From Chrysomallon squamiferum (lineage: Eukaryota; Animalia; Mollusca): a stretch of DNA of 64,000 nt. Shown here in pieces: positions 30,148-53,400 of this stretch. The notes beneath the pieces are model-generated. The model was not told the DNA's origin. It saw only the letters and a program-made list of their open reading frames with translations, and did not search any database. Position 1 is the stretch's first letter. Each line of letters starts with the position of its first letter. The translations under genes and the position numbers were made by a program. The DNA is taken from NCBI GenBank assembly GCA_012295275.1, contig CM022667.1, positions 10,292,001-10,356,000 on the forward strand, given 5' to 3'.

Positions 30148-30182
30148 TATATATTAAAGAAATTAATCTTTAGCCCACTCAC

Positions 30183-30270
30183 CTTGTTTCAGAATTAATT
30201 TGCAGATTTGAAATATTGTTTCCAGTCCAGTCAATACGTTTTATGTGGTGGTTTAAAATATAAACTTCTA
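30183..30270 (-). other. Non-coding first exon of paralogue B (proximal copy)
   Basis: Reverse complement accacataaaacgtattgactggactggaaacaatatttcaaatctgcaaattaattctgaaacaag|gtgagtggg is homologous to exon 1 of A (6017-6097) and of the pseudogene (2461-2536). The 5' boundary is uncertain. Confidence 0.7.
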
Positions 30271-30367
30271 AAATCGTGATTAAACAGAACAATCAGCAGG
30301 CAAGTTACATATAATGTGTTGTCAAATGTTATTTTCATCGATGTACTTTGCTATTAGCGTGACGTTT

Positions 30368-47400: not shown

Positions 47401-50400
47401 TTTTTGTTTATTTTATTTATTTATTTATTTATTTATTTATTACCGACTTCTAGGCAAGTTCTCACAATCGCAACCTAACATCATTAGAACCACTGTATCA
47501 AAACATGCACAGTATAAGATTAACACCAAATAAAGAAATCAATTTTTGTATCACTGACCTTGATTTGAAGACGTGAAAATTACTGTGAAATATTCTTCCC
47601 AATTCAATCAATACGCAACTCTAAGGAGAATGATATGTTGTTTCGTTACTATGTCGTATGTTTACCGTGTTGCTATGGTCAGTTTAACTGCTTCCATGTA
47701 AGTAACATCTACGTTAAAAAACGAGCAGTGTAAGATTATATCCAAATAAGATACTTATCTATTTATTTATTTTATTTTATTTGTTTATCTATTTGTTTAT
47801 TTATTTATTTATTTATTTACTTACTTCCATATTTATTTTATTTGTCTTATTTTATTTATTTATTTATTTATTTATTTGTTTTATGTATTTTTTTTTTTTT
47901 TTTTTTTTTTTTTATTTATGACCGTCTTCCAGGGAAGTGAAGTTCTCAAAATCGCACCCTGAATGCATAATCACTGTATTAAAATATAACAACAAACAGT
48001 AGTTAAAAACCTCTGCAATATAATATTAATTCCAAATAAAGGATTATTTTTTTTTATATATACCTGACTGTGATTTGACGTTGTGAAAATTAATCATTTT
48101 AAACTATAAACATTTAAATATCGTTTCCGTTACCTAAAACATAATCCGCCTGTTCCGCCCCCCCCCTCATCCGATTTTCTACAGTCGCTGACCTTTTGCT
48201 CAAGTGGCCGCATGACAAGTTACAGTTATATATTTTTTTTCTGTTTTCTGTCGCATACCAGTTCAGTATTACAAATGACTCACTCGACTCAGTTTCACCC
48301 TATAATACTCGCTACAAATACAAAACTATTCACAACTTCTGACAAGTCTGTGTTTGTTTTTTTTCTTGGATTCCTTCTTTGTTTGTTCGTTTTCAAAATA
48401 TTGGGGTAAATATCTTAGATCTGGCAGAGAGAGAGAGAGAGAGAGAGAGAGAGAGAGAGAGAGAGAGAGAGAGAGAGAGAGAGAGAGAGAGAGAGAGAGA
48501 GAGAGAGAGAGAGAGAGAGAGTACAAAGGTAATATAATATGATAAAGAAGTTTTTAGAAGTTGAATGCTTTTGGGTTTAACGAAAAAGAATGAACATTTA
48601 ATTTTTGACAAATATTTATATACGGCCCGTTGATGGACTTTCAATGGGGTTTTTTGTAGTTTTTTTTTAAAATTTGTCATGAAGGTATCAAAGCAATCAT
48701 TCATTAATTTACTTTTCACATGTAAATACGACCTCTAATGCATTGAACATGGAAATAAATATTATTAAAAAAAACAACAAAAAAAAACCCAACAAGAATT
48801 AAAATGGTTTCAAGTATCGTTTTACAACTATATACTCAGAGCTGTTATTTATTATTATTATTATTATTATTATTATTATTATTATTATTATTATTTATAT
48901 ATTAAAGAAATTAATCTTTAGCCCACTCACCTTGTTTCAGAATTAAATTGTAGCTTTGAAATATTGTTTCCAATCCAGTCAGTACGATTTATGTGGTGGT
49001 TTAAAATATAAACTTTTAAAATCGTGATTAAACAGAACAATCAGCAGGCAAGTTACATATAATGTGTTGTCAAATGTTATTTTCATCGATGTATTTTGCT
49101 ATAAACATACAACTGTGTTATATCAGATTCGATATTGATTTATTTATTTAAAATGCCATCAGAGACAAGTGCAATAATTAAAGCTAACGATTAGTTGCTT
49201 CGTTACTATGTTTTCTTGTTTATTATGTTGTTATAGTCAGTTTGACCGACTTCCATAGACGTAACCTCCACTTTAAAAAATAATCAATGTAAGATTAAAT
49301 CCAAATTATTTATTTATGACCGACCTCTAGGAAGGTTCTCAAAATCGCAAGCGAAGACATTCACAATATAAGATTAACACCTAACAAAGAAATTAATTCT
49401 TATAGCACTCACACTGACGTGAACATGTTAAAATTAATGTGTAATATTTTTTTCGAATCGATTCAGTAGGTTTTACTCGCTACAGAAAATCAGGCGAAGA
49501 CCACACGCAGACACATTCACTGATCAGGGAGAAAACAGAAGAAAAATAATTAAGTTGTTGCATACCGAGTTAGAGTAATATTACCATAGCAGTGTTTGTA
49601 TTTCAATTGAGCCGTTTTCAGTTTCACCCTAAAGCATTCAAAGTATTCCAAGTTTTCTTTTACTTTTTTCTTTTGTTTTGTTTTGTTGGGTTTTTTTTCT
49701 GTTTTCTTGTTTGTTCGATCGTTTTGGGGTGTTTATTTTTATTTTTTTTTTTTTTTTTTTTTTTTTTAGATCAGAATTAATTGTGTTATATCCGACTTGA
49801 TATTTATTTATTTATTTATTTATTTATTTTTGTTTGTTTGTTTGTTTGTTTGTTTTATTTTAATTTTATTTTATTTTTTATTTATAACCGACTATTAGGG
49901 AAGTTCTCAAAACGCAACCCAAATCCATAATTATTTGAAGATGTGAAAGTTAATGTGTAATGTTCTTTAGAATCCAGTCAGTAGGTTTTAGACGATATTG
50001 GTGACTGTTGAGAATCTGACCCTACTGAACATTACAGACACATTAACTGAACAAAATAATAATAATAATAATAATAATAAAAATCAAAAATCAAAAAAAA
50101 AAACCCACCCACTTACGACATGTCAAGAAAAAATATATTATGACTGATTATTTTCTTTTATATATATATATATATAATAATAATAATAATCAAAAAAAAA
50201 AAAAAAAAATACGAAGAGAAAGAATCAAAATTGAAAGAAAGGAAAGAAAAGAAAATATTAATAGTAAACTTTAAAACTCGTTATTAATAGAGAGGAAATA
50301 AAGGCAAGTTACATACAGTCTGTCATCAGAAGTTATTTAAACTTTAAAACTCGTTATTAATAGAGAGGAAATAAAGGCAAGTTACATACAGTCTGTCATC

Positions 50401-53400
50401 AGAAGTTATTTAAACTTTAAAACTCGTTATTAATAGAGAGGAAATAAAGGCAAGTTACATACAGTCTGTCATCAGAAGTTATTTTTAATCATACTGAGAT
50501 CGTCCCTGTCGTAAAATGTTTCAAAGTCATTCGCGTGACGTGTATTGTTCAGTAATCCACCCACTGAAAGAACAGCAAACCAGTGTTACTAGCCGAAGTA
50601 AGATCATCGCCAGTTGATAAGAGGTCAATAACAAAATATTTACTTGTGGGCTAATAAAATACAACGGAATACGTAGTGTATTTTACAGAGAGTCGGCTTC
50701 GTCAAGCTCTGGTAGACTTTAATTATGTTGACGACCGAATTTGACATTTTGTATCTTGGCATATTTTTAAAAGTATCATTCCGTCAACTTGTCTATTAAA
50801 ATCTCTCTCTCTCTCTCTCTCTCTCTCTCTCTCTCTCTCTCTCTCTCTCTCTCTCTCTCTCTCTCTCTCTCTCTCTCTCTCTCTCTCTCTCTCGCTGATA
50901 ACCTGTAAATATTGATTCGGAAGTCCCCCTTTACCTAAAACATAATCCGCCTCTCCTTCGAAATACGACTTTGTACTTAGTTGCCGTATATCGAGTTAGT
51001 GTAATTTTACCTTAATACTGTTTGTATTATAAAGCAGCCGGTCTTCTCAATAGTCACAATTGTTGTTGTTAACGTTTTTGTTTGTTTTTTTGTAGGGTTT
51101 TTTTGGTGTTTTTTTTTGTGGGATTTTTTAAAATGAAATTCTCTTAAAGATAACAGATAACAGAAAGTGGCACTGAACAATATAAAACTGAATGAGGTTC
51201 TGACGTAAAGGTTCTGAGAAATGAAAAGTTATTACTACTATTACTTCTATTATTGTTATTGTTATAGTAATTGTTATTGTTATTGTTATTATTATTATTA
51301 TTATTATTATTATTATTATTATTATTATTATTATTATTATTATTATTATTATTTTCTGCCAGTAGAAGCAAAACTGTCAAACAGGCGAACGTTTATCTCA
51401 CGACAGCGTTTTCTTCTCAGTTTCATCCTAAACCAGTCACAACATTCACAGTTGTTGATACCAGACTGTGCTGGCGTTTATACGTTTTTATTTTTATTTA
51501 TTTATTTTTATTTTATTTTATTTTATTTATTTTTTTTTTTTTTTTTTTTTTTATTATTCTGTTGTTGTTGTTTTTTTTAAAAAAATAAGAATTAACCGTG
51601 TTATATGCGATTCGATATTTATTTATTTAATTATTTTATTTATTTATTTATTTATTTATTTATATAAATTGCCCCTCAGGGACAAGTTTAAAAACTGCTA
51701 AGAGTCTGTTTGTTGTTTGTTTACTGTGTTGCTATACTCCATGGAAGTAACCTCTGACTTAAAAATTAGCAATGTAAGATTGAATCAAAATAAATTATTT
51801 ATTTATTCATTTATTCATTCATTCATTCATTCATTCATTTTGTTTTGTTTTTTTTTTTTTTTTTGTTTTTTTTTTATTTTATTTATTTATTTATTTATTT
51901 ATTTATTTATTTGTTACCGACTTCTAGGGAAGTTCTCAAAATCGCAACCTAACAGCATTAGAACCACTGTATCAAAACATGCACAGTATAAGATTAACAC
52001 CAAATAAAGAAATCAATTTTTGTATCACTGACCTTGATTTGAAGACGTGAAAATTACTGTGAAATATTCTTCCCAATTCAATCAATACGCAACTCTAAGG
52101 AGAATGATATGTTGTTTCGTTACTATGTCGTTTGTTTACTGTGTTGCTATGGTCAGTTTAACTGCTTCCATGTAAGTAACATCTACGTTAAAAAACGAGC
52201 AGTGTAAGATTATATCCAAATAAGATACTTATCTATTTATTTATTTTATTTTATTTGTTTATCTATTTGTTTATTTATTTATTTATTTATTTACTTACTT
52301 CCATATTTATTTTATTTGTCTTATTTTATTTATTTATTTATTTATTTATTTATTTTTTTTTTTTTTTTTTTTTTTTTTTTTTTTATTTATGACCGTCTTC
52401 CAGGGAAGTGAAGTTCTCAAAATCGCACCCTGAATGCATAATCACTGTATTAAAATATAACAACAAACAGTAGTTAAAAACCTCTGCAATATAATATTAA
52501 TTCCAAATAAAGGATTATTTTTTTTTATATATACCTGACTGTGATTTGACGTTGTGAAAATTAATCATTTTAAACTATAAACATTTAAATATCGTTTCCG
52601 TTACCTAAAACATAATCCGCCTGTTCGCCCCCTCATCCGATTTTCTACAGTCGCTGACCTTTTGCTCAAGTGGCCGCATGACAAGTTACAGTTATATATT
52701 TTTTTTCTGTTTTCTGTCGCATACCAGTTCAGTATTACAAATGACTCACTCGACTCAGTTTCACCCTATAATACTCGCTACAAATACAAAACTATTCACA
52801 ACTTCTGACAAGTTTGTGTTTGTTTTTTTCTTGGATTCCTTCTTTGTTTGTTCGTTTTCAAAATATTGGGGTAAATATCTTAGATCTGGCAGAGAGAGAG
52901 AGAGAGAGAGAGAGAGAGAGAGAGAGAGAGAGAGAGAGAGAGAGAGAGAGAGAGAGAGAGAGAGAGAGAGAGAGAGAAGGTACAAAGGTAATATAATATG
53001 ATAAAGAAGTTTTTAGAAGTTGAATGCTTTTGGGTTTAACGAAAAAGAATGAACATTTAATTTTTGACAAATATTTATATACGGCCCGTTGATGGACTTT
53101 CAATGGGGTTTTTTGTAGTTTTTTTTTAAAATTTGTCATGAAGGTATCAAAGCAATCATTCATTAATTTACTTTTCACATGTAAATACGACCTCTAATGC
53201 ATTGAACATGGAAATAAATATTATTAAAAAAAACAACAAAAAAAAAAACAACAAGAATTATAATGGTTTCAAGTATCGTTTTACAACTATATACTCAGAG
53301 CTGTTATTTATTATTATTATTATTATTATTATTATTATTATTATTATTATTATTATTATTATACTCTAGTAAAGTTTGCAGGCACATTACTGAAAAGGTG

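What the first reader, a model, noticed from the sequence alone, without database searches (positions are those of the whole stretch)
30150..53360. Five-fold tandem amplification of the promoter and non-coding first exon of a single SAMHD1-like gene
Seen: every 4.4-5.3 kb unit holds a copy of B's exon 1 with an intact AAG|GTGAGT donor (GT at 30182, 35466, 39852, 44527, 48930 on the minus strand). All copies point toward the one shared coding body starting at 29655, and the array contains no coding exon. Exon-1 identity is supported by homology to exon 1 of the two plus-strand copies. Inference: this is an array of alternative first exons/promoters splicing to common exons (architecture like UGT1A or protocadherin clusters, but with non-coding variable exons), or an enhancer-dosage amplifier that tunes expression of a dNTP-depleting restriction factor without changing protein copy number.
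Basis: partly seen in the sequence, partly recalled or inferred. Interest (0 to 1): 0.85.

Follow-up and report, generated by a model that had tools for sequence, protein, structure and literature searches.

The report
Headless first-exon copies upstream of SAMHD1
The control region and non-coding first exon of an antiviral-type SAMHD1 gene, likely from a snail, are repeated five times head to tail, but the four outer copies have lost the stretch where the one spliced RNA found begins, so they are likely by-products of unequal crossing-over rather than a set of alternative first exons.

Summary
The array is real: five 4.4-5.3 kb units (30148-53362), each with an exon-1 copy and intact donor, and no coding exon. 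The alternative-first-exon reading is not supported. The single RNA contig found (1 of 3 RNA runs laid) is spliced from the PROXIMAL exon to exon 2. It starts 35 nt beyond what the distal copies retain, within 1 nt of an initiator-like TCAGT. All four distal copies lack about 840 bp holding that motif, so they are 5'-truncated. Both array ends and every junction lie in (AAT)n tracts, and the units are mosaics (0.45-1.6% apart distally), which points to microsatellite-mediated unequal crossing-over rather than an assembly stutter. A diverged second sample showed only the proximal arrangement, a weak hint of copy-number variation. Enhancer dosage remains open: 3-4 IRF-like motifs per unit, found post hoc. 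Precedents exist: Drosophila hydra, Arabis PEP1, Plasmodium gch1 promoter amplification. This scan noted a similar array in octopus RNase H1 (unchecked). Caveats: contigs drop minor forms, the RNA animal may lack the array, and gene B has a 1-nt frame problem at exon 5.

The parts
30148..53362 (-). Five-unit head-to-tail array of the upstream region and exon 1 of SAMHD1-like gene B
   Evidence: self-BLAST; unit alignment
30148..35431 (-). Unit U1 (proximal, 5284 bp): full exon 1 and start region; its first ~2 kb is 4-5% diverged from the distal units, the rest about as close to them as they are to each other
35432..39817 (-). Unit U2 (4386 bp), distal type
39818..44492 (-). Unit U3 (4675 bp), distal type; 16 private substitutions, shares 15 states and a complex GA tract with U1
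44493..48895 (-). Unit U4 (4403 bp), distal type
48896..53362 (-). Unit U5 (4467 bp), distal type; ends in the outer (AAT)n tract
30183..30389 (-). Proximal exon 1 as covered by the RNA contig (207 nt); non-coding for the main frame, two upstream ATGs
   Evidence: RNA contig X1 record 1; allele table; frames
30386..30390 (-). Initiator-like TCAGT; the RNA contig's 5' end (30389) falls inside it; predicted transcription start
   Evidence: consensus as given in PMC1904467 section 9
30355..31193 (-). Segment present only in U1 (deleted from the distal units except a diverged ~75-nt piece); holds the RNA 5' end and an inverted-repeat pair at 30366-30488 / 30969-31079 (87% over 123 bp)
35467..35638 (-). 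5'-truncated exon-1 copy with intact donor (GT 35466)
39853..40024 (-). 5'-truncated exon-1 copy with intact donor (GT 39852)
44528..44699 (-). 5'-truncated exon-1 copy with intact donor (GT 44527)
48931..49102 (-). 5'-truncated exon-1 copy with intact donor (GT 48930)
32340..32568 (-). Older diverged copy (75-83%) of the start region and 5' half of exon 1, with no donor; repeated in each unit (best matches 37069-37112, 41504-41560, 46126-46169, 50529-50572), 1.6-1.7 kb upstream of each distal donor; initiator block intact in 4 of 5 units
29993..30147 (.). (AAT)n tract in intron 1: inner end of the array and inferred crossover substrate
53308..53362 (.). (AAT)n tract at the outer end of the array; unique flank beyond it
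29608..29656 (-). Exon 2 of gene B (acceptor AG 29658-29657, ATG at 29655); joined to proximal exon 1 in RNA
19116..29656 (-). Coding body of SAMHD1-like gene B: 13 coding exons, 470 aa if exon 5 uses a donor 2 nt upstream of the one homologous to gene A's; no SAM domain

Best explanation
The array is a partial-gene tandem amplification, likely made by unequal crossing-over between two (AAT)n microsatellites flanking the promoter and first exon, whose four outer copies have lost the predicted start site, so that the gene is likely transcribed from the innermost copy alone. Inferred order: (1) two AAT tracts about 5.2 kb apart mispaired and duplicated the block between them; (2) the outer copy lost about 840 bp including the initiator, or came from an allele already lacking it; (3) further unequal exchanges at one- and two-unit offsets multiplied the headless unit and homogenised everything but the first 2 kb of U1. 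The retained donors are most likely idle passengers, and the array is most likely a near-neutral copy-number variant in a locus that is full of partial SAMHD1 duplicates.
For: Shown: every junction reads 35 nt of intron 1, then AAT tract, then outer flank, and both array ends lie in AAT tracts. The deletion is shared by 4 of 4 distal units. U1 differs from the distal units by 4-5% in 30148-32200 but by 0.2-3.3% beyond, like the distal units among themselves; shared states are non-nested (01011 x15, 00011 x7, 01010 x6, 00111 x1 among 2872 masked columns). The one RNA contig has 8 differences from U2, equal to the 8 U1-vs-U2 differences, and the 5 that were listed are all U1 alleles. Its 5' 35 nt are U1-only sequence and its 3' side is exon 2. 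Its 5' end lies within 1 nt of a TCAGT absent beside the distal exon. The U1 arrangement looks ancestral: the older diverged copy and run X5 both show it. The window holds other partial SAMHD1 copies. Established precedent: hydra exon-1 copies arose by unequal crossing-over (PMC1904467, passages).
Against: The tool states that contigs drop rare variants and cannot show a start. It is unknown whether the RNA animal carries the array. All 5 donors and the 172-nt exon remnants are intact, though at 0.5-1.6% divergence little decay is expected. Each unit keeps an older initiator block 1.6-1.7 kb upstream of its donor (intact in 3 of 4 distal units). In hydra at least four of nine duplicated first exons are used. 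Four extra copies with IRF-like motifs could be selected; neutrality was not tested.
Confidence: 0.55

Rival explanations
1. Enhancer-dosage amplifier: transcription starts only at the proximal initiator, but the extra units add enhancer modules that raise, or by sequestering factors lower, B's expression or inducibility.
For: Each unit carries 3-4 IRF-like GAAA[CG][CT]GA[AG] and 1-2 kB-like motifs (16 and 9 in the array), above dinucleotide shuffles (U1 4 vs 0.36, 0 of 100; U2 3 vs 0.24, 1 of 100). CpG o/e is 0.91-1.00 in the units against 0.24 in the neighbouring gene. Precedents: cattle GC enhancer CNV (PMC8328317, abstract) and Plasmodium gch1 promoter amplification (PMC7774857, passages).
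Against: The motif patterns were chosen after seeing the sequence, and the hits are copies of one internal sub-repeat, so the shuffle test overstates them. The same IRF-like pattern is also above shuffles in 1-30000 (5 vs 1.4), and GAS-like motifs are not enriched. The motif names are recalled, not from a call. In D. yakuba at most 5 of 66 whole-gene tandem duplications raised expression (PMC5460883, passages), and hydra expression is about 22-fold lower in the species with nine heads.
Confidence: 0.22
2. Alternative first exons as in hydra or PEP1: distal copies start transcription, either inside the 172-nt remnant or at the older initiator block 1.6-1.7 kb upstream, and splice to exon 2.
For: Five intact donors. 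The older initiator block is intact in U2, U4 and U5. PMC1904467 section 9 reports that two hydra exons lacking a TATA box or DPE are still used. PEP1 exons 1a and 1b both splice to one exon 2 (PMC3527215 section 12).
Against: The only RNA contig is proximal, and no RNA contig covered 35639-36205, which a long first exon would include (weak, holes prove little). No TCA[GT]T lies in 35467-35800. Distal exons are nearly identical and non-coding.
Confidence: 0.15
3. Assembly artefact: one or two real units expanded by mis-assembly or by joining haplotypes.
For: No contig of run X5 bridges the distal junction (0 of 6 laid). The region is rich in microsatellites. No whole genome or spanning reads were available.
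Against: Units differ by substitutions outside simple repeats, with states shared between non-adjacent units, which a stutter of one copy would not give. X5 differs from both U1 and U2 (6 differences in 147 nt of exon 1), so it is unlikely to be the window's own DNA.
Confidence: 0.06

Closest known systems
Drosophila hydra, nine tandem exon-1 copies (PMC1904467; abstract, passages, sections 9 and 16 read)
   Same: First exon multiplied in tandem by unequal crossing-over in front of one gene body, with a repeat beside the exon helping the mispairing.
   Different: hydra copies keep core-promoter elements and nine codons, and at least four are used. Here the units are 4.4-5.3 kb, non-coding, and the distal ones lack the predicted start; none was seen in RNA.
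Arabis alpina PEP1, partial tandem duplication of exon 1 (PMC3527215; abstract and section 12 read)
   Same: Duplicated first exon upstream of a shared exon 2.
   Different: Two copies with different promoters, both transcribed. Here five copies with near-identical upstream DNA and only the proximal one seen spliced.
Plasmodium falciparum gch1 promoter amplification (PMC7774857; passages read)
   Same: Tandem multi-copy amplification of the upstream region without the coding sequence.
   Different: gch1 units are 378-466 bp and common in populations under drug pressure. Here polymorphism, selection and effect are untested.
Cattle GC 12-kb multi-allelic enhancer CNV (PMC8328317; abstract and outline read)
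   Same: Kilobase-scale tandem non-coding multiplication at an immunity-related gene.
   Different: There the CNV is associated with expression and a trait; nothing of the kind is shown here.
UGT1 / GCNT2 / protocadherin variable-first-exon clusters (PMC1885805; passages read)
   Same: Tandem first exons facing common downstream exons.
   Different: Their variable exons are diversified, coding and each preceded by its own promoter. The distal copies here are none of these.

Membership tests
Variable-first-exon cluster (UGT1/Pcdh/GCNT2; hydra, PEP1) | Tandem first-exon copies with splice donors upstream of common exons | tested here: met
Variable-first-exon cluster (UGT1/Pcdh/GCNT2; hydra, PEP1) | Each first exon preceded by its own promoter/start site | tested here: not met
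   4 of 4 distal copies lack the segment with the RNA 5' end and the initiator-like motif; promoter activity itself was not assayed
Variable-first-exon cluster (UGT1/Pcdh/GCNT2; hydra, PEP1) | More than one first exon spliced to the common exon | tested here: inconclusive
   only the proximal junction seen, in one contig from 1 of 3 RNA runs; contigs drop minor forms
Variable-first-exon cluster (UGT1/Pcdh/GCNT2) | Variable exons diversified in sequence or coding content | tested here: not met
   distal exons identical in 3 of 4 copies, 2 sites differ in the fourth; non-coding
Regulatory-region multi-allelic CNV (gch1 promoter, GC enhancer) | Tandem copies of upstream DNA without coding sequence | tested here: met
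Regulatory-region multi-allelic CNV (gch1 promoter, GC enhancer) | Copy number varies among individuals | tested here: inconclusive
   run X5: 0 of 6 contigs bridge the distal junction and two leave it into U1-like sequence; holes prove nothing
Regulatory-region multi-allelic CNV (gch1 promoter, GC enhancer) | Expression tracks copy number; unit has enhancer activity | not testable with these tools
   only post hoc motif counts
SAMHD1-like dNTP triphosphohydrolase (gene B) | Homology to SAMHD1 and HD active-site motifs | tested here: met
   E 8e-18 to solved SAMHD1 for one exon; RFEH, CHDLGHGP, HE and DVDKWDY motifs present (their catalytic role is recalled)
SAMHD1-like dNTP triphosphohydrolase (gene B) | Intact reading frame | tested here: inconclusive
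   exon 5 is 1 nt shorter than in gene A at the homologous donor, which shifts the frame; a GT 2 nt upstream keeps it open

The most novel reading that the evidence does not exclude
The array is a selected, copy-number-variable immune rheostat: five units stack 16 IRF-like sites in front of one SAMHD1 gene, and on induction the older initiator blocks fire and use the retained donors, giving 1.6-kb chimeric first exons stitched from an ancient promoter copy and a recent exon copy. This would tune dNTP depletion in a mollusc without adding protein-coding copies.
Probability: 0.12. Interest if true: 0.65.

Novelty: new member of a known kind. Interest (0 to 1): 0.3.

Why it matters
As it stands it is a clean, readable case of how a variable-first-exon architecture can begin and fail: microsatellite-bounded duplication, loss of the start site, then amplification of the headless unit. 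If copy number turned out to set SAMHD1 expression, it would be a natural dosage series for an antiviral-type gene in an invertebrate, testable with the unit-specific SNPs listed here. Three searches on SAMHD1 in molluscs listed no paper on such an array; the library lacks most subscription journals.

Tried and rejected
No whole genome is held, so the dispersal of the unit's sub-repeats and other SAMHD1 paralogues could not be checked. Summed contig depth in X5 (about 25-50) was not used as copy number, as the tool warns. Non-coding RNA array rejected: no tRNA in the window, and Rfam on 29500-40000 gave only three sub-threshold miRNA matches on an intron-1 microsatellite, none in the array. 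A MITE reading of the inverted pair 30366-30488 / 30969-31079 was considered and left aside: the DNA between the arms is made of the unit's own sub-repeats, and it could not be tested genome-wide. GAS-like motifs are not enriched. Long-term methylation of the units is not suggested by CpG o/e near 1, but a young array would not show depletion yet. The careful tree did not finish; only the quick tree is cited. No earlier notes exist for this place or protein. Supplements of the papers were not opened.
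Full report
Setting. The window holds a cluster of SAMHD1-like genes. Gene A (+ strand, about 6000-14400) and gene B (- strand, about 30390-19100) have full sets of exons, and two further copies are partial. One exon matches solved SAMHD1 structures at E 8e-18. In a quick tree of 36 proteins (34 picked by hand from the hits; gene A truncated by an error in my model; no bootstrap), A and B group with a Gigantopelta aegis protein at SH-aLRT 97. The animal is therefore likely a gastropod. 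No whole genome is held.

The observation. Self-comparison shows five head-to-tail units between 30148 and 53362, of 5284, 4386, 4675, 4403 and 4467 bp. The five donors are at the stated coordinates and are the only MAG|GTRAG sites on that strand of the array. No coding exon is present, nor any tRNA or Rfam family in the part scanned. Exon 1 resembles those of the plus-strand copies and has no in-frame ATG reaching B's CDS.

The alignment shows that all four distal units lack about 840 bp found in U1 directly upstream of the shared 172 nt (30355-31193, apart from a diverged ~75-nt piece). Of five public runs holding part of 26000-30400, four were laid on the U2 exon and its upstream DNA (35432-36205). 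Of the three RNA runs, X2 and X3 gave nothing. X1 gave one contig of 2618 nt, laid at 35467-35638 with 8 differing letters. U1 and U2 differ at exactly 8 sites there, and the 5 letters the tool listed are all U1 alleles. The contig's 3' loose end is exon 2 from 29656, so the splice is real. Its 5' loose end of 35 nt is U1-only sequence from 30355, which puts its first base at 30389. A TCAGT initiator-like motif occupies 30390-30386, and it is one of two such motifs in 30183-30500; none lies in 35467-35800. By my arithmetic an end within 2 nt of such a motif has about a 3% chance; this was noticed post hoc, and the tool warns that contigs cannot show a start. The distal copies are thus 5'-truncated exons without the predicted start site. 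Limits: one contig, minor forms are dropped, and the X1 animal may not carry the array.

Origin. Each internal junction reads 35 nt of intron 1, an (AAT)n tract, then the outer flank; the array's two ends lie in the intron-1 tract (29993-30147) and an outer tract (53308-53362). That is the pattern expected from unequal crossing-over between two AAT tracts (inference). In 2872 columns free of gaps and simple repeats, distal units differ by 0.45-1.6% and U1 by 2.2-2.7%. U1's excess lies in its first 2 kb (4-5%), and shared states are non-nested. This fits repeated unequal exchange and argues against an assembly stutter. The U1 arrangement looks ancestral. An older 75-83% copy of the start region inside every unit has the same order. 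Run X5 (kind not on record; it runs through the donor unspliced, so it looks like DNA) has no contig across the distal junction among 6 laid, and two leave it into U1-like sequence. Over 35844-36205, 10 of X5's 13 listed substitutions are U1 alleles, while at 7 other U1-versus-U2 sites it keeps the U2 letter. It is a third haplotype, so the U1-distal distance may be allelic rather than a measure of age. This hints at a young or polymorphic array, but holes in contigs prove nothing and some X5 contigs may come from paralogues.

Function. I commit to a single working promoter in U1 and idle distal donors in a near-neutral CNV (0.55). Enhancer dosage (0.22) rests on 3-4 IRF-like and 1-2 kB-like motifs per unit, above shuffles, and on CpG o/e near 1. 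Against it, the patterns were chosen post hoc, their names are recalled, the hits are copies of one sub-repeat, and the IRF-like pattern is also enriched outside the array. Alternative first exons (0.15) stay possible through the older initiator block 1.6-1.7 kb upstream of each distal donor, intact in U2, U4 and U5; no RNA contig covered the part of such an exon that was laid. Artefact is put at 0.06. A further caveat: B's exon 5 is 1 nt short at the donor homologous to A's, so B is intact only if a GT 2 nt upstream is used or the assembly is wrong there.

Comparison with what is known. Drosophila hydra has nine tandem exon-1 copies made by unequal crossing-over, at least four of them used, with about 22-fold lower expression than in D. 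simulans (PMC1904467; abstract, passages, sections 9 and 16). Arabis PEP1 has two exon-1 copies spliced to one exon 2 (PMC3527215; abstract and section 12). Promoter-only amplification is known for Plasmodium gch1 (PMC7774857; passages), and an enhancer CNV for cattle GC (PMC8328317; abstract and outline). In UGT1 and GCNT2 each variable exon has its own promoter (PMC1885805; passages), a feature not met here. Tandem duplications seldom raised expression in D. yakuba (PMC5460883; passages). A SAMHD1 transcript is over-represented in disease-resistant oyster families (PMC6971885; passages), the only support seen for an immune role in molluscs. rDNA spacer promoters were seen in a search listing only. 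An unchecked note of this scan describes a similar promoter and first-exon array at an octopus RNase H1 gene (e1-9520962). Searches listed no paper on this kind of array at SAMHD1; no supplements were opened.

Verdict. A real structure, a new member of a known kind (partial-gene tandem amplification of the 5' region). It works like the first stage of a hydra-type array but fails the own-promoter test for membership. Interest 0.3; 0.65 if the inducible-rheostat reading (probability 0.12) were shown.

Noticed in passing
window 25180-25252 (-): Exon 5 of gene B is 1 nt shorter than in gene A before the homologous donor; splicing there shifts the frame, while a GT 2 nt upstream keeps it. Assembly error in a short A run, shifted donor or null allele.
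   Followed up: partly
window 6012-6090 (+): Gene A's first exon has an initiator-like TCAGT at 6012 and an in-frame ATG at 6029, so it looks coding; B lacks both at the homologous place and starts about 130 nt further upstream.
   Followed up: partly
window 18928-18989 (+): A 62-bp inverted copy (89%) of B's coding exon 22548-22715 lies just past B's stop codon. If the 2618-nt contig is the fully spliced mRNA, its 3' end would lie near 18120 and the mRNA could fold back on its own coding sequence (inference).
   Followed up: partly
window 575-1450 (-) and 1893-4470 (+): Two more partial SAMHD1 copies: one lacking its 5' half, one with promoter, exons 1-2 and a broken exon-5 remnant.
   Followed up: no
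window 13163-13276 and 13697-13810 (+): Tandemly duplicated coding exon in gene A, a candidate for mutually exclusive splicing.
   Followed up: no
window 36805-37024, 41180-41472, 45862-46081, about 50265-50480: A 73-bp piece of the older exon-1 copy is itself repeated 3-4 times in the distal units but single in U1.
   Followed up: no
window 26572-26931, 28099-28462 and once per unit (e.g. 35074-35364): A ~300-bp dispersed repeat, in inverted orientation in two places inside one intron of B and carried in every unit.
   Followed up: no
window 55900-64000 (-): Neighbouring gene body is strongly CpG-depleted (o/e 0.24) against 0.7-1.0 across the SAMHD1 cluster; its protein was not identified.
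   Followed up: no
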